Shown piece by piece: positions 496 to 7,059 of a DNA stretch of 22,383 nt. The position numbers were made by a program, and so were the translations under genes. Source of the DNA: a virus (Duplodnaviria; Heunggongvirae; Uroviricota; Caudoviricetes). The notes below the pieces were generated by a model. The model had not been told where the DNA came from. It saw nothing but the letters and a program-made list of their open reading frames with translations, and ran no database searches. The DNA is taken from the IMG/VR virus record IMGVR_UViG_2602041568_000007; one strand, given 5' to 3'. The first letter of the stretch is position 1, and every line of letters starts with the position of its first letter.

Positions 496-1248
496 ATGAA
501 CCTTGAAGCCTTACCAAAATATTACTCCCCAAAATCTCCCAAATTGAGCGATGAGGCACCGGCGACAGGCTCGAGTGGTTTAACGATTACGGATGTGATG
601 GCTGCGCAGGGGATGGTGCAGTCGAAAGCACCGCTTGGGTTTGCCTTATTTCTGGCAAAAGTTGGTGTTCAGGATCCTCAGTTTGCGATTGAAGGTCTGC
701 TCAATTACGCGATGGCACTGGATAACCCGACATTGAACAAATTGAGTGAAGAAACCCGGTTACAGATCATCCCTTACCTTGTGAATTTTGCCTTTGCTGA
801 TTATTCCAGGTCTGCTGCAAGTAAGGCTCGCTGTGAGCATTGTGCTGGTACTGGATTTCATAATGTATTGCGCGAAGTGGTGAAACACTCCAGAAGCGGG
901 GAATCTGTTATCAAGGAAGAGTGGGTGAAGGAACTATGTCAGCATTGTCATGGTAAGGGAGAGGTCAGCACAGCGTGTAGAGGGTGTAAGGGGAAAGGTA
1001 TTGTACTGGATGAAAAAAGAACCCGGCTTCATGGTGCGCCTGTTTATAAGGTTTGTGGGCGTTGCAATGGAAACCGGTTTAGCCGTTTACCAACCACACT
1101 GGCGCGGCATCATGTCCAGAAGCTGGTACCGGATCTGACGGATTATCAGTGGTACAAAGGATATGCAGATGTCATTGATAAACTGGTTACAAAGTGCTGG
1201 CAGGAAGAAGCATATGCAGAGACACAATTGAGAAAAGTGACAAGATAA
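496..1248 (+). CDS. Late-gene antitermination protein Q (long, Qin-prophage-like)
   Basis: 250 aa; position immediately upstream of a promoter/terminator pair and the lysis cassette; four CxxCxGxG-type Cys repeats (CEHCAGTG, CQHCHGKG, CRGCKGKG, CGRCNGNR). Pattern recalled as typical of the long Q-like antiterminators of E. coli lambdoid prophages. Confidence 0.7.
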   Translation: MNLEALPKYYSPKSPKLSDEAPATGSSGLTITDVMAAQGMVQSKAPLGFALFLAKVGVQDPQFAIEGLLNYAMALDNPTLNKLSEETRLQIIPYLVNFAFADYSRSAASKARCEHCAGTGFHNVLREVVKHSRSGESVIKEEWVKELCQHCHGKGEVSTACRGCKGKGIVLDEKRTRLHGAPVYKVCGRCNGNRFSRLPTTLARHHVQKLVPDLTDYQWYKGYADVIDKLVTKCWQEEAYAETQLRKVTR

Positions 1249-1279: not shown

Positions 1280-1308
1280 TTGCATTTTTCAAAAAATATG
1301 GATAAGAT
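1280..1308 (+). promoter_or_regulatory. Candidate Q-dependent late promoter (PR'-like)
   Basis: TTGCAT, 17-nt A/T-rich spacer, TAAGAT read directly from the sequence about 30 nt downstream of the Q stop; followed about 50 nt later by an intrinsic terminator, mirroring the lambda PR'-qut-tR' arrangement. Not experimentally supported. Confidence 0.25.
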
Positions 1309-1354
1309 TTTCCCAACGATGGGCTTTGTATGTCTACCGTTGATAAGATTTAAG

Positions 1355-1379
1355 AACCCGCCACTGAGCGGGTTTTTTG
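1355..1379 (+). terminator. Rho-independent terminator (tR'-like)
   Basis: GC stem ACCCGC / GCGGGT with a 6-nt loop, followed by TTTTTT. Confidence 0.55.
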
Positions 1380-1476
1380 TACCTGTAAACTTGGTGCAGT
1401 ACAGTAAACACGCTGGTGGTCGTGAATACTGACTTTTTATCTTGCTGGATTTTTAGACAAGAGTTATTGGTATGTC

Positions 1477-1704
1477 ATGTTAACCAGAAGGGAAAAAGAC
1501 ATGCTAAAACAGCAAGATATGACAGAAACCGCCGCCGCAGTCCTTCATTTCTTACCTGCTGACAAGTGGGTAACGCCACGCATGATGACGAGAACTACCG
1601 GAGTAAGCGAAGCCCGGTGCCAGTTAATACTGACTCAGTTAGTTCTGGCGGGTCTGGCGAAGGATAACGGCGGGTACGGGAATAAATTCAGACGCTGCCA
1701 GTAA
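1477..1704 (+). CDS. Small FaeA/PapI-like winged-helix protein (putative regulator)
   Basis: 75-aa ORF; segment VLHFL...VTPRMMTRTTGVSEARCQLILTQLVLAGLAKDNGGYGNKF resembles the PapI/FaeA pattern (xLEFL...T.EIA...V....AR.YL..L...G.......RG..Y.F). Start may instead be the internal Met about 8 codons downstream. Assignment is from recalled sequence pattern only. Confidence 0.4.
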   Translation: MLTRREKDMLKQQDMTETAAAVLHFLPADKWVTPRMMTRTTGVSEARCQLILTQLVLAGLAKDNGGYGNKFRRCQ

Positions 1705-1854
1705 TGGCGGTTTCCTGCTGTGAAAATGGGCGGCTGGTGGGTGTTGGTAGCACCTGCCAGCCATTCGCTCATGCTTACTGGTCACAAGCGAACCACGGCC
1801 CACTGCTTTAGCGCAAAAGCAGAGTGAGCCTACCAGAGTTACGCTTACTGATCC

Positions 1855-2907
1855 ATGAAAAATACTGTAAAAATAAACAGTGTTGATTTAATCAACGCTG
1901 ATTGCCTGCATTTTATTCAGTCCCTGCCTGATGATTCCATTGACCTGATTGTTACCGATCCGCCTTACTTCAAGGTGAAACCTAACGGTTGGGACAATCA
2001 GTGGAAAGGGGACGAAGATTACCTTAAGTGGCTGGACCACTGTCTGGCCCAGTTCTGGCGGGTGTTGAAACCTGCCGGAAGCCTTTACCTGTTCTGTGGG
2101 CATCGCCTGGCATCTGATATTGAGATCATGATGCGTGAACGTTTCAACGTGCTTAACCATATCATCTGGGCGAAGCCGTCCGGACGTTGGAATGGGTGTA
2201 ATAAAGAAAGTCTGCGCGCATATTTTCCTGCCACAGAGCGCGTTCTGTTTGCTGAACATTACCAGGGGCCATATCGCGGCAAAAGTGACGGCTATGCGGC
2301 AAAAGAAAGGGAACTCAAACAGCACATAATGGCACCGCTGATATCGTATTTCAGGGATGCTCGTGCCGAACTGGGTATAACGGCAAAACAAATTGCCGAA
2401 GCCACAGGTAAGAAAAATATGGTTTCCCACTGGTTTGGTGCCAGTCAGTGGCAGTTGCCGAATGAGGCTGACTATCGGAAGTTACAGGCACTGTTTTCCC
2501 GTATAGCGGCAGAGAAGTTTCAGGAACAACAACTGGAACAACCACACCACCAGCTGGTGGCATCTTATGATTCACTGAATCGCAAATATTCTGAATTGCT
2601 GGATGAGTTTAAATCTCTCCGGCGCTATTTCTCCGTATCAGTCTCCGTGCCTTATACCGATGTCTGGACGCATAAGCCCGTTCAGTTCTACCCGGGTAAA
2701 CATCCGTGCGAGAAACCGACGGATATGCTCCGGCAAATAATCAATGCCAGTAGTCGACCTGGTGATCTGGTTGCTGATTTCTTTATGGGATCCGGTTCCA
2801 CAATAAAAGCAGCAATGGCGCTGGGGCGTCGGGCGTTAGGTGTTGAACTTGAGTCAGAGCGGTTTAATCAGACGGTGAAAGAGGTAAGTGAACTGGTGGG
2901 GAAATAA
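1855..2907 (+). CDS. DNA amino-methyltransferase (N6-adenine or N4-cytosine), phage-encoded orphan MTase
   Basis: Catalytic DPPY motif (LIVTDPPYF) near the N-terminus and AdoMet-binding FxGxG motif (DFFMGSGST) near the C-terminus. This motif order (IV before I) is taken here to indicate a beta-class enzyme. No adjacent restriction endonuclease gene. Confidence 0.8.
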   Translation: MKNTVKINSVDLINADCLHFIQSLPDDSIDLIVTDPPYFKVKPNGWDNQWKGDEDYLKWLDHCLAQFWRVLKPAGSLYLFCGHRLASDIEIMMRERFNVLNHIIWAKPSGRWNGCNKESLRAYFPATERVLFAEHYQGPYRGKSDGYAAKERELKQHIMAPLISYFRDARAELGITAKQIAEATGKKNMVSHWFGASQWQLPNEADYRKLQALFSRIAAEKFQEQQLEQPHHQLVASYDSLNRKYSELLDEFKSLRRYFSVSVSVPYTDVWTHKPVQFYPGKHPCEKPTDMLRQIINASSRPGDLVADFFMGSGSTIKAAMALGRRALGVELESERFNQTVKEVSELVGK

Positions 2908-2914
2908 TTCTGGT

Positions 2915-2938
2915 GGCCACGTTGCGTGGCCTTTTTAT
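2915..2938 (+). terminator. Rho-independent terminator after the methyltransferase gene
   Basis: Inverted repeat GGCCACG ttg CGTGGCC followed by TTTTTA, just after the stop at 2907. Confidence 0.5.
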
Positions 2939-2983
2939 TTCCAACACAGCACCCGCAAATATCGCGAGGTGAGAGATGACGAA

Positions 2984-3319
2984 ATGCCTCATAACCCAAA
3001 TACCTGGCCGGACTGGCTGGAGTTGTTTCAGAGCTGGTGGCGTGGAGACACACCGCTGGGTGCAGTGATTATGTCGATCGTTATGGCTGGTTTGCGCATC
3101 GCCTATTTTGGCGGTGGTGGTGGCTGGAAACGAAAAACGCTCGAGATTTTGCTCTGTGGCGCTCTGACGCTGACCTTTGCATCCGCTCTTGAATATGTCG
3201 GATGGCCTAAATCGCTTTCTGTTGCCATTGGTGGTGGCGTGGGGCTGATCGGTGTCGATGCTATTCGTGGGGCTGCAATGCGAGTAATCGGTAACAAATT
3301 TGGTAGCTCGAAGGAGTAA
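2984..3319 (+). CDS. Holin, class I (lambda S-like, three predicted TM segments)
   Basis: Start chosen at the internal Met (MPHNPNTW...) preceded by GAGGTGAG; the listed ORF start at 2888 overlaps the MTase and its terminator. Three hydrophobic segments and a basic C-terminus (RVIGNKFGSSKE), resembling lambda S; directly upstream of the endolysin. Confidence 0.7.
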   Translation: MPHNPNTWPDWLELFQSWWRGDTPLGAVIMSIVMAGLRIAYFGGGGGWKRKTLEILLCGALTLTFASALEYVGWPKSLSVAIGGGVGLIGVDAIRGAAMRVIGNKFGSSKE

Positions 3320-4358: not shown

Positions 4359-4709
4359 ATGCCCCCTCGAACTCCAAAAGCCTGCCGCGTTCGCGGCTGC
4401 CGTAATACCACGACAGACCCGTCAGGCTACTGCGAAAGCCACAAAAGCGAAGGCTGGAAGCAATACAAGTCAGGACAATCCCGTCATCAGCGCGGTTATG
4501 GTTCTAAGTGGGATGTTATCCGTGTGCGTGTGCTGCAACGTGACAAAGGCCTGTGTCAGTTATGTCTGCGTGCCGGTGTGGCGCGTGAAGCGAAAACCGT
4601 TGACCACATCATCCCTAAAGCACATGGCGGCACTGATGTCGACAGTAATCTGCAGAGTCTGTGCTGGCCGTGTCATAAGGCGAAGACGGCCCGTGAACGG
4701 CTTAAGTGA
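4359..4709 (+). CDS. HNH endonuclease (terminase-associated, HK97 gp74-like role)
   Basis: 116 aa; CxxC...HxxxH...N...CxxCH arrangement (CQLCL...VDHIIPKAHGGTDVDSNLQSLCWPCH); immediately upstream of terminase small subunit. Confidence 0.85.
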   Translation: MPPRTPKACRVRGCRNTTTDPSGYCESHKSEGWKQYKSGQSRHQRGYGSKWDVIRVRVLQRDKGLCQLCLRAGVAREAKTVDHIIPKAHGGTDVDSNLQSLCWPCHKAKTARERLK

Positions 4710-4724
4710 TAATAACTCTCAACT

Positions 4725-4795
4725 GTCTGAGGGGAGGGGCGGGTCAAATCCCTGCATCCTGACGTCTTCCGGACTGCCCGCCCCATCGTTTTTTT
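4725..4795 (+). other. GC-rich inverted repeat plus T-run between HNH and TerS; candidate cos-site region and/or terminator
   Basis: GGGGCGGG ... CCCGCCCC separated by about 35 nt and followed by TTTTTTT. In HK97-like phages cos lies between the HNH gene and the small terminase gene. Confidence 0.3.
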
Positions 4796-4834
4796 ATACC
4801 CGCGAAAAATGAAATTTAACCAGGAGTGCCGCAT

Positions 4835-5329
4835 ATGGCTGGAACGGCGGGGCGTTCCGGGCGTCGCCCCAAGCCAACGGCGCGCAAGGCGCTGGCCGGA
4901 AACCCCGGCAAGCGAGCCCTGAATAAAGATGAACCTGTTTTTACGCCCATCAAAGGTGTTGAGCCACCGGAGTGGTTCGCTGAAGAAGATCTCCCTCTCG
5001 CCACGATCATGTGGCAACTGACAACTAAAGAACTCTGCGGTCAGGGCCTGCTGTGCGTGACTGACCTCGCGGTGCTTGAGCGGTGGTGCGTGGCCTACGA
5101 GTTCTGGCGACGTGCCGTGAAAAATATTGCCAGACAGGGCAACACCATCACCGGTGCAATGGGCGGTATGGTCAAAAATCCGGAGCTGACCGCCAAAAAA
5201 GAACAGGAGTCCGAGATGAGCAGCACGGGGGCAATGCTCGGACTCGACCCCAGCAGCCGCCAGCGTCTGATTGGCCTGGCGGGGCAGAAGAAAGCCACTA
5301 ACCCGTTTCTGAAAATCATCGAATCATGA
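4835..5329 (+). CDS. Terminase small subunit (P27 family)
   Basis: Start at ATG ([14 protein letters not shown]...) with AGGAG 8 nt upstream; this N-terminal motif is typical of P27-family TerS; stop overlaps TerL start (ATGA). Confidence 0.8.
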
Positions 5330-7059
5330 GCCGGAAATCTTACCCCAACGTAAATGCTGCCAATCAGTATGCCCGTGATGTCGTGCGCGGAAAGATTGTG
5401 GCCTGCCAGTTTGTGATTCAGGCCTGCCAGCGCCATCTTGATGACCTGATGGCGGAAAAAAGTAAGTCGTTTCGTTACCGCTTCGACAAGGACCTGGCTG
5501 AACGGGCCGCGAAATTTATTCAGCTGTTGCCGCACACCAAGGGTGAGTGGGCATTCAAACGGATGCCCATCACGCTGGAGCCGTGGCAGCTATTTGTGAT
5601 CTGCTGTGCGTTTGGCTGGGTCAATAAAGGCACCCGGTTGCGCCGCTTCCGGGAGGTGTATACCGAAATCCCCCGTAAGAACGGCAAATCAGCAATCTCT
5701 GCCGGTGTTGCCCTGTATTGTTTTGCCTGTGATAACGAGTTTGGCGCGGAAGTGTATTCCGGTGCCACGACAGAGAAACAGGCGTGGGAAGTCTTTCGCC
5801 CGGCGCGACTGATGTGTAAACGCACACCCATGCTGACGGAAGCGTTCGGGATTGAGGTTAACGCTTCAAACATGAACCGTCCGGAGGATGGCGCGCGGTT
5901 TGAACCGCTGATCGGTAACCCCGGTGATGGTTCATCACCCCACTGTGCGGTGGTGGATGAATATCACGAGCACGCCACCGATGCGCTTTACACCACGATG
6001 CTTACCGGGATGGGGGCGCGACGTCAGCCACTGATGTGGGCCATCACCACCGCCGGGTACAACATTGAGGGGCCGTGCTACGACAAGCGGCGGGAAGTCA
6101 TCGAGATGCTCAACGGCTCGGTGCCTAACGATGAACTGTTCGGGATCATCTATACCGTTGACGAAGGTGACGACTGGACCGACCCGCAGGTGCTGGAAAA
6201 AGCCAATCCAAATATTGGCGTGTCGGTTTATCGCGAATTTTTGTTAAGTCAGCAGCAGCGTGCGAAAAATAACGCCCGCCTGGCAAACGTCTTTAAAACA
6301 AAACACCTCAATATCTGGGTGTCGGCGCGTTCGGCTTATTTCAATCTGGTGAGCTGGCAGAGCTGCGAGGATAAATCACTGACCCTTGAGCAGTTCGAGG
6401 GGCAACCGTGCATTCTGGCCTTTGACCTGGCGCGTAAGCTGGATATGAACAGCATGGCGCGACTTTATACCCGCGAGATTGACGGTAAAACGCATTACTA
6501 CAGTGTGGCCCCGCGCTTCTGGGTACCGTATGACACGGTGTACAGCGTCGAGAAAAATGAAGATCGCCGGACAGCCGAACGCTTTCAGAAATGGGTGGAA
6601 ATGGGCGTCCTGATCGTTACCGATGGTGCAGAGGTGGATTATCGCTACATCCTCGAAGAGGCCAAAGCGGCGAACAAAATCAGCCCGGTCAGTGAGTCAC
6701 CCATCGACCCTTTCGGGGCGACCGGGCTGTCACATGACCTTGCTGATGAAGACCTGAATCCCGTTACTATCGTCCAGAACTTCGCCAATATGTCCGACCC
6801 GATGAAAGAGCTGGAAGCAGCGATTGAATCGGGGCGCTTTCATCATGACGGCAATCCCATCATGACCTGGTGTATCGGCAATGTGGTCGGCAAAAACATG
6901 CCTGGTAACGATGATTTAGTGAAGCCCGTCAAGGAGCAGGCGGAAAACAAAATCGATGGTGCGGTTGCACTGATTATGACGATCGGTCGGGCAATGCTCA
7001 AAGAACCTGACGATTTCCTCTCATCTCTTGATCCGGACGATGATCTCTTAATTCTATGA
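5326..7059 (+). CDS. Terminase large subunit
   Basis: 577 aa; Walker A-like segment ([10 protein letters not shown]) and acidic Walker B-like segment ([10 protein letters not shown]); placed between TerS and portal. Confidence 0.9.

What the first reader, a model, noticed from the sequence alone, without database searches (positions are those of the whole stretch)
1477..2940. Terminator-flanked cargo island between Q and the holin: FaeA/PapI-like small protein plus orphan DNA amino-methyltransferase
The Q-to-holin interval is a classic lambdoid cargo hotspot. Here it holds a 75-aa protein with a PapI/FaeA-like winged-helix signature and a DPPY-motif methyltransferase, bracketed by intrinsic terminators at about 1355-1379 and 2915-2938. 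PapI/FaeA regulators are known for Dam-methylation-dependent epigenetic switches, so the pairing with a phage-borne adenine MTase could be a small epigenetic module rather than simple anti-restriction. A GATC overlaps the MTase start region (CTGATCCATG), and an 8-bp direct repeat GCTTACTG occurs twice upstream.
Basis: partly seen in the sequence, partly recalled or inferred. Interest (0 to 1): 0.55.

Follow-up and report, generated by a model that had tools for sequence, protein, structure and literature searches.

The report
Gated promiscuous phage DNA methylase cassette
The two genes between the phage's late-gene switch and its lysis genes are a known "methylate every adenine" anti-restriction enzyme and a small winged-helix protein, and the 150 bases between them form a conserved, apparently undescribed folded RNA that probably keeps this toxic enzyme untranslated until needed.

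Summary
Two intrinsic terminators (1352-1380, 2915-2938) bracket a small ORF and a DPPY methyltransferase between Q and the holin.

- **Methyltransferase:** it is 81% identical to M.EcoGII, the characterised non-specific adenine methyltransferase. That enzyme is silent in lysogens and harmful when expressed constitutively. There is no target motif for an epigenetic switch.
- **Small protein:** it most likely starts at 1501 (67 aa, not 75). It is a confident generic winged helix, but no family member matches the FaeA/PapI profile.
- **Spacer (new result):** the 150-nt spacer (about 1715-1857) is a conserved structured RNA absent from Rfam.
  - It precedes M.EcoGII-type genes in lambdoid, N15-like and VHML-like phages, in 93 distinct sequences.
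  - In two Aeromonas/Vibrio phages a small zinc-ribbon ORF lies between it and the methyltransferase; one of these ORFs passes Pfam's Com model.
- Covariation supports two hairpins plus a long-range helix that pairs the bases just upstream of the start codon.
- **Linkage:** the winged-helix gene always accompanies this unit, but only about half of the units carry it.

Best reading: a late-expressed anti-restriction methylase under mom-like translational control. The winged-helix protein's role is unproven.

The parts
496..1248 (+). Late antiterminator Q (context: defines the late operon in which the cassette sits)
   Evidence: Pfam Antiterm E 2.1e-53; phrog_127 'anti-termination protein Q-like'; 98% identical to SfV Q.
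1280..1308 (+). Candidate late promoter pR' (TTGCAT-17 nt-TAAGAT). This is my own reading of the sequence and is tentative.
   Evidence: Read directly from the sequence. It was not called by the consensus scan, so it is an inference only.
1352..1380 (+). First intrinsic terminator (tR'-like) and left edge of the mobile cassette
   Evidence: 10-bp GC-rich stem plus U-run, -21.2 kcal/mol, z -3.7. Annotated as a terminator in SfV and Ayreon. Homology to cdtI, PhiR40 and similar phages begins here (query position 107).
1442..1476 (+). Conserved element CTTGCTG-N12-(C)AGAGTTAYMTGTRTG upstream of the winged-helix gene. It may be a weak promoter, operator or 5'UTR element; its function is unknown.
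   Evidence: Near-invariant blocks across 27 loci of many genera. It co-occurs with the winged-helix gene: 38 of 44 loci with the gene have it, against 3 of 51 without.
1501..1704 (+). Small winged-helix protein, 67 aa (phrog_331, function unknown).
   Evidence: Conserved MLKQQDMTE N-terminus. RefSeq WP_000917724. AlphaFold2 pLDDT 87.5 with H-b-H-H-wing topology. The RCQLILTQL helix is invariant despite many synonymous codons.
1715..1857 (+). Conserved structured 5' leader RNA of the methyltransferase, not in Rfam.
- P1 hairpin: 1726-1772.
- P3 hairpin: 1797-1830.
- P4 long-range helix: GGUCA 1780-1784 with UGAUC 1849-1853, and AAGC 1786-1789 with GCUU 1843-1846.
- Possible alternative pairings: UGUGA 1719-1723 with UCACA 1782-1786, and UGGGC 1727-1731 with GCCCA 1798-1802.
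   Evidence: The spacer is 142-154 nt in 29 of the 30 intact wH-MTase loci (134 nt in one). No Rfam hit. Covariance models find it upstream of every M.EcoGII-type gene examined.
1855..2907 (+). M.EcoGII-family beta-class N6-adenine DNA methyltransferase, predicted to be non-specific
   Evidence: 81% identity over 349 aa to M.EcoGII (sequence taken from the supplement of PMC11551740). Pfam N6_N4_Mtase E 1.6e-42.
2915..2938 (+). Second intrinsic terminator and right edge of the cassette
   Evidence: 7-bp stem with 6 GC pairs plus T-run; z -3.95. Annotated as a terminator in SfV and Ayreon.
2984..3319 (+). Holin, the first lysis gene (context)
   Evidence: Pfam Phage_holin_3_1 E 2.6e-27.

Best explanation
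The island is a mobile late-gene anti-restriction cassette, not an epigenetic switch.

**1. The enzyme.** It belongs to the M.EcoGII family and is predicted to methylate adenines regardless of sequence. This would make progeny phage DNA resistant to many restriction systems.

**2. Transcription.** The cassette lies behind the first terminator downstream of Q. It should therefore be transcribed only when Q-modified RNA polymerase reads through, that is, late in lytic growth. A second terminator insulates the lysis genes. This step is inferred from the lambdoid paradigm.

**3. Translation.**
- The conserved ~140-nt leader folds into two hairpins (P1, P3).
- A long-range helix (P4) pairs positions -12 to -2 upstream of the AUG.
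- The gene has no Shine-Dalgarno sequence at normal spacing.
- The default state is therefore translationally closed. This fits an enzyme whose constitutive expression harms the cell.
- Opening probably needs a trans factor or a refolding event.

**4. The winged-helix protein.**
- It is an accessory part found only with this unit.
- I think it most likely modulates the leader or the methylase. It would be the functional counterpart of Com in the Mu com-mom operon, and of the small zinc-ribbon ORFs (one passing Pfam's Com model) at the equivalent position in two Aeromonas/Vibrio relatives.

**Status of each step.** Shown here: methylase identity, leader conservation and covariation, and gene linkage. 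Inferred: Q dependence, translational repression, and any role of the winged-helix protein.

**Step confidences.** Methylase identity about 0.95. Leader as a real structured cis-acting RNA about 0.8. Leader occludes translation initiation about 0.65. Winged-helix protein regulates this unit about 0.4.
For: **Methylase**
- 81% identity and 90% similarity to M.EcoGII over its full length.
- M.EcoGII is non-specific, prophage-borne, unexpressed in the lysogen, and gives slow-growing, unstable clones when constitutive (PMC5778455).
- The region matches in 1934 of 5426 complete E. coli genomes (1112 with at least 80% of it), and in SfV, mEp460, cdtI and Stx2 phages.
- It sits just before the lysis genes in lambdoid, N15-like, VHML-like and P2-like phages, and before the tRNAs and stx2AB in an Stx2a phage.

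**Leader**
- Spacer length is 142-154 nt in 29 of the 30 intact wH-MTase loci (134 nt in one), with 77-79% mean column identity.
- No Rfam or tRNA hit.
- A degenerate motif scan of viral contigs returned 120 loci. Of these, 113 have an M.EcoGII-type gene directly downstream, with the start codon exactly 21 nt after the motif in 108.
- The five exceptions that were put to the covariance model were not recovered, so they look like chance matches.
- On 93 distinct sequences, 83% of cells pair against 26-44% in slid controls. 36 of 43 pairs show compensatory changes. The covariation score is 0.297 against at most 0.077.
- The P4 core alone gives 87% paired against at most 43%, and 0.346 against at most 0.114.
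- P4 also covaries on a plain MAFFT alignment that was not fitted to the structure.
- Many G-U pairs (for example GU 50 / GC 43) place the structure on the + strand RNA.
- Thermodynamic folding predicts P1 and P4 in the window (pair probabilities 0.84, 0.59, 0.81).

**Com precedent**
- In Aeromonas phiARM81ld and a Vibrio phage the leader precedes a small zinc-ribbon ORF that abuts the methylase. The Aeromonas ORF scores 27.9 bits on Pfam Zn_ribbon_Com against a cutoff of 22.9.
- Com-like genes precede non-specific adenine methylases in Mu-like prophages (PMC3299994).

**Winged-helix protein**
- Every assessable genome locus with the full-length gene has the leader and methylase downstream: 28 of 33, plus one with the gene cut short by a stop codon.
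- In close viral relatives, 78 of 79 have it.
Against: - No experiment here shows repression, activation or RNA binding.
- The leader-plus-methylase unit occurs without any winged-helix gene in roughly a third of leader-bearing phages, sometimes with a nearly identical leader. The protein therefore cannot be an obligatory activator.
- One allelic type of the protein has no net positive charge by my count of its sequence, which is unusual for a nucleic-acid binder.
- In the loci with a zinc-ribbon ORF, the leader lies upstream of that ORF, so the leader is not simply the Com target.
- P2 is thermodynamically disfavoured (probability 0.03), and the alternative UGGGC:GCCCA pairing is almost invariant. 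The switching logic is therefore unresolved.
- P4 is predicted with probability above 0.5 in only 54% of sequences.
- Alignments made with the covariance model lean towards the modelled structure.
- Non-specificity of this particular enzyme is inferred from 81% identity, not measured.
Confidence: 0.65

Rival explanations
1. The winged-helix protein is an ordinary DNA-binding transcription factor. It would act on its own promoter or operator (the conserved element at 1442-1476) or on host or phage genes. The leader would work without it.
For: - Closest fold and profile matches are DNA-binding winged-helix regulators: TrmB in 26 of 27 members, MarR_2 in 19, DprA_WH in 18, plus IclR, ArsR and TrmBL2.
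- A conserved upstream DNA element travels with the gene.
- The leader and methylase occur without the protein.
Against: - The gene is never found away from the leader-methylase unit. This is odd for a general regulator.
- No convincing sigma-70 promoter was called on the + strand at 1380-1500.
- The third helix, which is the recognition helix in DNA-binding winged-helix proteins, is unusually hydrophobic (RCQLILTQLVLAGL).
- One allele type is not basic.
Confidence: 0.25
2. The winged-helix protein is a protein partner of the methyltransferase. It could be an inhibitor or antitoxin-like brake, a dimerisation aid, or a targeting factor, rather than a nucleic-acid binder.
For: - Strict one-way linkage to the methylase.
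- The invariant hydrophobic helix 3 could be a protein interface.
- The top Foldseek hits are N-terminal regions of SAM-dependent O-methyltransferases, which serve as dimerisation domains by general knowledge.
- The N-terminal two-thirds can be swapped between alleles (about 50% identity) while helix 3, the wing and the methylase stay the same.
Against: - M.EcoGII is active and non-specific on its own (PMC5778455).
- The Foldseek E-values are weak (3e-3 or worse).
- No complex prediction was possible with these tools.
Confidence: 0.15
3. The conserved 150-bp spacer acts as DNA, for example as an internal promoter (extended -10-like TGTGAAAAT at 1719-1727) or an operator, rather than as folded RNA.
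For: TGnGAAAAT is nearly invariant in enterobacterial copies. Several blocks are invariant, so they cannot be assigned to RNA or DNA by covariation.
Against: - Compensatory changes occur in 36 of 43 pairs.
- Abundant G-U pairs would be A-C mismatches on the other strand.
- The -10-like hexamer is not kept in distant members, for example GAACGU in phiARM81ld.
- M.EcoGII is silent in lysogens (PMC5778455).
Confidence: 0.1
4. One reading: a PapI/FaeA-type regulator plus a site-specific adenine methylase form a Dam-like heritable epigenetic switch acting on GATC or repeat sites in the island.
For: The protein has a winged-helix fold, as PapI does. A GATC abuts the start codon and is conserved in the Enterobacterales lambdoid-type loci aligned here.
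Against: - No FaeA/PapI profile similarity.
- The methylase belongs to the non-specific M.EcoGII family.
- There is a single GATC in the regulatory region and no enrichment.
- The GATC is absent in distant members (PY54, N15, Serratia OS31), where P4 is kept by other sequences.
- The cassette sits in a late lytic operon, where heritable switching has no obvious role.
Confidence: 0.03

Closest known systems
M.EcoGII / M.EcoGI (non-specific beta-class adenine methyltransferases of E. coli O104:H4 prophages; Murray et al. 2018, PMC5778455)
   Same: 81% identical over the full length. Same DPPY...FxGxG motif order. Same prophage setting. The published family explicitly includes many enterobacterial phages.
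   Different: - Activity of this allele is untested.
- The published account that I read does not mention the upstream winged-helix gene, the conserved leader, or the position behind tR'.
Bacteriophage Mu com-mom operon and the Com-plus-non-specific-methylase operons of Mu-like prophages (PMC3299994, PMC6483171)
   Same: - A toxic, broadly acting DNA-modification enzyme expressed late.
- A small ORF immediately upstream in the same transcript.
- An RNA structure that occludes the start region of the enzyme gene.
- In two Aeromonas/Vibrio relatives a small zinc-ribbon ORF occupies the slot upstream of the methylase; the Aeromonas one passes Pfam's Com model.
   Different: - Here the small protein is a winged helix, not a zinc ribbon.
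- The leader is larger (~140 nt, three helices) and unrelated in sequence.
- The leader also occurs with no small ORF at all.
- The enzyme is beta-class, whereas the Mu-like prophage methylases are alpha-class and Mom is not a methylase.
- Activation by the protein is unproven.
PapI / FaeA (Pfam PF04703) co-regulators of Dam/Lrp phase variation
   Same: Small size (about 70 aa) and winged-helix fold.
   Different: - No profile similarity.
- No fimbrial operon, and no paired GATC sites.
- The partner methylase is not Dam-like.
- PapI is not listed among the top structural matches shown.
Lambdoid 'moron' inserts downstream of pR'/tR' (for example stx genes, and the prophage anti-sRNA loci of PMC4104026)
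   Same: Same insertion hotspot. The insert is terminator-bounded and mosaic, and it is shared among unrelated phages. In an Stx2a phage the cassette sits directly upstream of the tRNAs and stx2AB.
   Different: - No autonomous promoter was demonstrated.
- The cargo serves the phage (anti-restriction) rather than the lysogen.
- It carries its own cis-regulatory RNA.

Membership tests
PapI/FaeA family (Pfam PF04703) | Sequence or profile similarity to FaeA/PapI | tested here: not met
   No FaeA hit at E<=1 for the protein or for any of 27 relatives. hhalign of the family profile against the PapI sequence (verified as PDB 2HTJ) gives probability 23%.
PapI/FaeA family (Pfam PF04703) | Winged-helix fold | tested here: met
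PapI/FaeA family (Pfam PF04703) | Regulatory region with two spaced GATC sites, next to a fimbrial operon | tested here: not met
   Only one GATC (1850) lies between 1136 and 1956. The neighbours are Q, a methylase and lysis genes.
M.EcoGII family of non-specific adenine methyltransferases | Beta-class motif order (DPPY, central TRD, C-terminal FxGxG) and close full-length similarity to M.EcoGII | tested here: met
   DPPY at residues 35-38 and FMGSGS at residues 310-315. Pfam N6_N4_Mtase E 1.6e-42. 282 of 349 residues identical to M.EcoGII.
M.EcoGII family of non-specific adenine methyltransferases | Sequence-context-independent m6A formation on DNA (and RNA) | not testable with these tools
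   Inferred from 81% identity. M.EcoGI and M.EcoGII themselves share 333 of 349 residues (PMC5778455).
M.EcoGII family of non-specific adenine methyltransferases | Prophage-borne and silent in the lysogen | tested here: inconclusive
   The prophage late-region location behind a terminator is shown. Silence in the lysogen is only inferred.
Mu com-mom type translational control | Com zinc-ribbon protein (four Cys; Pfam PF10122) encoded upstream | tested here: not met
   The window protein is a winged helix with no zinc-ribbon hit. A Com-like ORF that passes the Pfam cutoff does occur in the homologous cassette of Aeromonas phage phiARM81ld.
Mu com-mom type translational control | Start region of the enzyme gene sequestered in an RNA helix | tested here: met
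   Helix P4 pairs 1843-1853 (AUG at 1855) with 1780-1789. It is 87% paired against at most 43% in slid controls, and 8 of 9 pairs have compensatory changes. Predicted pair probabilities are 0.59 and 0.81 in the window. This is computational evidence only.
Mu com-mom type translational control | The small protein binds the leader RNA and activates translation | not testable with these tools
   No binding or expression assay is available here.
Any described RNA family (Rfam 15) | Match to a curated covariance model | tested here: not met
   No hit at gathering threshold in the window. No hit with E<=10 inside 1705-1854. No tRNA or tmRNA. The conserved strings are not found in the searchable literature.
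Restriction-modification controller (C) protein plus methylase | Xre-type HTH protein upstream of R-M genes, with a cognate endonuclease | tested here: not met
   No HTH_3 hit for the small protein. No endonuclease gene in the cassette. PADLOC gives only the MTase_II model for the methylase and nothing for the small protein.

The most novel reading that the evidence does not exclude
A widespread, undescribed riboregulator gates translation of the promiscuous M.EcoGII-type adenine methylases in temperate phages of Enterobacterales, Vibrionales and Aeromonadales. Different lineages have attached different small protein effectors to it: a winged-helix protein in lambdoid and N15-like phages, and Com-like zinc ribbons in Vibrio and Aeromonas phages. 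The 67-aa winged-helix protein would then be an RNA-binding translational activator, a com-mom circuit reinvented on a different fold.

A bolder variant: the enzyme also methylates RNA, so it may methylate conserved unpaired adenines of its own leader and thereby feed back on its own translation.
Probability: 0.3. Interest if true: 0.75.

Novelty: new variant of a known kind. Interest (0 to 1): 0.55.

Why it matters
- **Enzyme biology.** M.EcoGII is a widely used reagent and a model "ancestral" methyltransferase. The papers I read say only that it is silent in lysogens. They do not say how the phage controls it.
- **Scale.** The region matches in about a third of complete E. coli genomes, and at least 80% of it is present in about a fifth. 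In one Stx2a phage examined it lies immediately upstream of the Shiga toxin genes, presumably on the same late transcript.
- **A testable mechanism.** A conserved leader that closes the ribosome-binding region would explain how phages carry so dangerous an enzyme. It would be a new RNA family for Rfam. It also gives a direct way to ask what opens it: the winged-helix protein, a Com-like protein, RNA processing, or the enzyme's own RNA methylation.
- **Annotation.** The result corrects a tempting misreading of the small protein as PapI-like.

Tried and rejected
- **Sequence search of the small protein against PDB.** Only noise.
- **NCBIfam and PADLOC for the small protein.** Nothing.
- **Rfam and tRNA search of the spacer.** Nothing. 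A weak minus-strand STnc130 match lies over the first terminator.
- **RNAalifold on the plain alignments.**
  - It gave a partial structure on one alignment and a different one on another.
  - I therefore built the structure by hand from the single-sequence fold and from visible compensatory changes, then tested it with controls.
- **A 'decoy' hairpin.** It is not supported: 59% paired, no better than the controls.
- **The distal part of P4.** Positions 1790-1793 with 1838-1842 pair in under half of the sequences, so I dropped them.
- **A hairpin in the conserved element upstream of the small gene.** The pairing register is inconsistent between loci, so it was not pursued.
- **Literature.**
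  - Searches for the SfV orf47/orf48 genes and for the conserved strings found nothing relevant.
  - The prophage anti-sRNAs described in EHEC lie downstream of the cargo genes and are a different element.
Full report
**What is in the window.** The window is the late region of an SfV/HK97-like lambdoid prophage of E. coli. The interval 1249-2983 is 100% identical to several E. coli chromosomes. It is 98-99.7% identical to phages vB_EcoM-720R4, Ayreon, mEp460, cdtI and SfV, and it matches in 1934 of 5426 complete E. coli genomes.

The gene order is as follows:
- a DUF968/HNH protein;
- Q (496-1248);
- a terminator;
- a small ORF;
- a 150-nt spacer;
- a methyltransferase (1855-2907);
- a second terminator;
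- holin (2984-3319), endolysin and spanins;
- an HNH endonuclease and the terminase genes.

**Check of the observation.**
- Both ORFs and both terminators are real. The first hairpin (1352-1377 plus U-run) was missed by the simple scan, but it folds with z = -3.7. The second terminator region has z = -3.95. Both are annotated as terminators in SfV and Ayreon.
- Homology to phages with other Q regions begins at the first terminator and ends just before the holin. The "terminator-flanked island" description is therefore accurate.
- The small gene most likely starts at 1501, giving 67 aa. All relatives start MLKQQDMTE, a GAAGGG Shine-Dalgarno sequence lies 8 nt upstream, and RefSeq annotates that start.
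- The GATC at 1850 and the two GCTTACTG copies exist. GATC is not enriched, and the 8-mer pair is only marginally unusual.

**The methyltransferase.**
- It is a beta-class amino-methyltransferase (Pfam N6_N4_Mtase, E 1.6e-42), with DPPY near the N-terminus and FMGSGS near the C-terminus.
- Using the M.EcoGII sequence printed in the supplement of PMC11551740, BLASTP gives 282 of 349 identities (81%) with no large gaps.
- M.EcoGII methylates adenine in any sequence context, on double- and single-stranded DNA and on RNA. It lies on a prophage, is not expressed in the native lysogen, and gives slow-growing, unstable clones when constitutive. Its authors describe a very large family in E. coli prophages and known enterobacterial phages (PMC5778455).
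- The enzyme here is therefore almost certainly a promiscuous anti-restriction methylase. This removes the basis for a site-specific epigenetic module.

**The small protein.**
- No Pfam model reaches significance for the window protein. Across 27 relatives the recurrent weak hits are TrmB (26), MarR_2 (19) and DprA_WH (18). FaeA never appears.
- PHROGs places it in phrog_331, of unknown function.
- AlphaFold2 on a 27-sequence alignment gives a confident minimal winged helix (pLDDT 87.5).
- A profile comparison with PapI gives probability 23%.
- It is a real protein. The helix-3 motif RCQLILTQL is invariant across many genera while its codons vary freely (five Arg codons, six Leu codons).
- Two allelic N-terminal versions, about 50% identical, are joined to the same helix 3, wing, leader and methylase.

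**Linkage.**
- Searching one genome per species with the small protein found 33 loci in many Enterobacterales genera, among them Mangrovibacter, Plesiomonas, Providencia, Proteus, Kluyvera, Salmonella, Citrobacter, Klebsiella, Buttiauxella and Mixta.
- In 29 of them an M.EcoGII-type gene follows. The other four are partial matches or a contig end. One of the 29 has the small gene cut short by a stop codon.
- The gap between the two genes is 142-154 nt in 29 of the 30 intact wH-MTase loci tabulated, and 134 nt in one.
- The reverse does not hold. Among 95 leader-bearing phage loci:
  - 44 have this protein 3-22 nt upstream of the modelled leader;
  - about ten have a distant homologue further upstream, the N15 gp51 / PY54 ORF59 type (hhalign probability 78%, E 1.7e-5 for N15 gp51; HMM E 3e-4 for the YDC107 copy);
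  - roughly 35-40 have unrelated genes upstream.
- The protein is therefore an accessory of the leader-methylase unit, not the other way round.

**The spacer is a conserved structured RNA.**
- It is more conserved than the small protein (77-79% mean column identity). It has no Rfam or tRNA match.
- From visible compensatory changes I defined three helices.
  - P1 is a long hairpin (1726-1772).
  - P3 is a hairpin (1797-1830).
  - P4 is a long-range helix that encloses P3. It pairs GGUCA 1780-1784 with UGAUC 1849-1853, and AAGC 1786-1789 with GCUU 1843-1846.
- Covariance models built on these find the element directly upstream of every M.EcoGII-type gene I examined. These include Morganella IME1369_02, Serratia OS31, Yersinia PY54, N15, YDC107_1 and Vibrio VHML/MAR.
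- In Aeromonas phiARM81ld and Vibrio Val-yong3 the element lies upstream of a small zinc-ribbon ORF that abuts the methylase. The Aeromonas ORF passes Pfam's Com model.
- A degenerate motif scan of IMG/VR returned 120 loci. In 113 an M.EcoGII-type gene (40-90% identity) follows, with its start exactly 21 nt after the motif in 108. The five exceptions that were put to the model were not recovered, so they appear to be chance hits.
- Covariation on 93 distinct sequences:

| Measure | Structure | Slid controls |
|---|---|---|
| Cells paired, whole structure | 83% | 26-44% |
| Pairs with compensatory change | 36 of 43 | 13-22 |
| Covariation score, whole structure | 0.297 | at most 0.077 |
| Cells paired, P4 core (9 pairs) | 87% | at most 43% |
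| Covariation score, P4 core | 0.346 | at most 0.114 |

- P4 also covaries on the unfitted MAFFT alignment: AU/GC/GU at three consecutive pairs.
- Frequent G-U pairs place the structure on the + strand, that is, in the mRNA.
- Caveats: model-made alignments lean towards the model, the sequences are related, the apical part of P1 and the distal part of P4 are poorly kept, and no energy-independent statistical test such as R-scape was available.

**What the leader probably does.**
- P4 covers positions -12 to -2 relative to the AUG.
- In Serratia OS31 and N15 the equivalent helix reaches the start codon itself. In VHML it abuts the AGGA Shine-Dalgarno sequence.
- The E. coli-type gene has no Shine-Dalgarno sequence at normal spacing.
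- Thermodynamic folding predicts P1, P4 and P3 as the ground state in the window.
- Two further pairings are mutually exclusive with parts of this fold, which hints at a switch, but their support is thin.
  - UGUGA 1719-1723 with UCACA 1782-1786 is 92% paired, with modest covariation and a predicted probability of 0.03.
  - UGGGC 1727-1731 with GCCCA 1798-1802 is 100% pairable but almost invariant, with one compensatory sequence.
In distant phages the GATC is lost while the helix is kept by other bases.

**Model.**
- Transcription of the cassette should depend on Q-mediated read-through of the first terminator. This is inferred from the lambdoid paradigm, and it is consistent with the silence of M.EcoGII in lysogens.
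- Translation is additionally closed by the leader.
- This two-layer control resembles Mu mom, which is late, toxic and requires the small protein Com to open an inhibitory RNA structure.
- Com-like genes are already known upstream of non-specific adenine methylases in Mu-like prophages (PMC3299994).
- I propose that the winged-helix protein is the lambdoid accessory at this control point. That step is inference, at about 0.4 confidence. It is weakened because many phages keep the leader and methylase without the protein.

**Comparison with what is known, and novelty.**
- The enzyme is known.
- The insertion site is the classic cargo hotspot. In an Stx2a phage the cassette sits just upstream of the tRNAs and stx2AB.
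- The following appear undescribed in Rfam and in the literature I could search:
  - the conserved leader RNA and its start-site-occluding helix;
  - its spread across lambdoid, N15-like and VHML-like phages;
  - the dedicated winged-helix gene with its own conserved upstream element.
- Overall this is a new variant of a known kind of control, not a new kind of system.

Noticed in passing
window 1442-1476: A conserved element CTTGCTG-N12-(C)AGAGTTAYMTGTRTG lies 25-60 nt upstream of the winged-helix gene in many genera. It travels with that gene (38 of 44 loci with the gene, against 3 of 51 without). It reads as a poor sigma-70 promoter (TTGCTG-17-TAYMTG) and could be an operator or a 5'UTR signal.
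   Followed up: partly
window 1501-1704; L002 (SfV) 2750-2944; viral loci L037-L116: The 200-nt winged-helix gene is mosaic. Two N-terminal allele types, only about 50% identical, are joined to the same invariant helix 3, wing, leader and methylase (57 against 21 among close viral relatives). This implies recombination inside the gene.
   Followed up: partly
window 1727-1731 and 1798-1802: UGGGC and GCCCA are almost invariant and 100% complementary in 93 leaders. The one sequence that changes one of them (phiARM81ld, GUGGC) also changes the other, and the P1 partner as well. This may be an alternative conformer or a tertiary contact.
   Followed up: partly
L118 (phage N15) 1865-2235: N15 gene 52 is annotated as starting 234 nt downstream of where the methylase homology and the leader's start-codon position place it (2001 against 2235). 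The deposited annotation is probably too short. In N15 the leader follows directly after the annotated late promoter and terminator.
   Followed up: no
L117 (Aeromonas phiARM81ld) 1728-2077; L126 (Vibrio Val-yong3) 1729-1978: In these phages the leader ends at the start codon of a small zinc-ribbon ORF, and that ORF abuts or overlaps the methylase. The Aeromonas ORF passes Pfam's Com model. This suggests two control layers in series.
   Followed up: partly
L036 5149-5287; L006 5001-5069; L019 5339-6376: Decayed copies of the cassette:
- a leader with only a partial winged-helix match and no methylase (L036);
- a winged-helix gene cut by a stop after 22 codons, with the leader and methylase intact (L006);
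- a methylase with an in-frame stop (L019).
   Followed up: no
window 1346-1482, minus strand: Weak Rfam match to the enterobacterial sRNA STnc130 (29.5 bits against a gathering score of 55, E 0.06). It overlaps the first terminator and the spacer before the winged-helix gene. It is probably chance or terminator-driven.
   Followed up: no
window 1855: The methylase start codon has no Shine-Dalgarno sequence within 5-10 nt in the E. coli type (the nearest GAG is 17-19 nt upstream). Proteus, Providencia and PY54 copies have AAAAAGG about 12-14 nt upstream. The first codons are A-rich (AUGAAAAAUACUGUAAAAAUAAAC).
   Followed up: no
window 4359-7059: An HNH endonuclease gene sits immediately upstream of a P27-family small terminase and the large terminase. 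This is the usual HK97-type packaging arrangement and is ordinary.
   Followed up: no
L127 (Stx2a phage WGPS2) 4153-7183: In this Shiga-toxin phage the winged-helix gene, the 150-nt leader and the methylase are followed directly by ileZ-argN-argO and stx2AB. The cassette and the toxin genes therefore presumably share one late transcript.
   Followed up: partly
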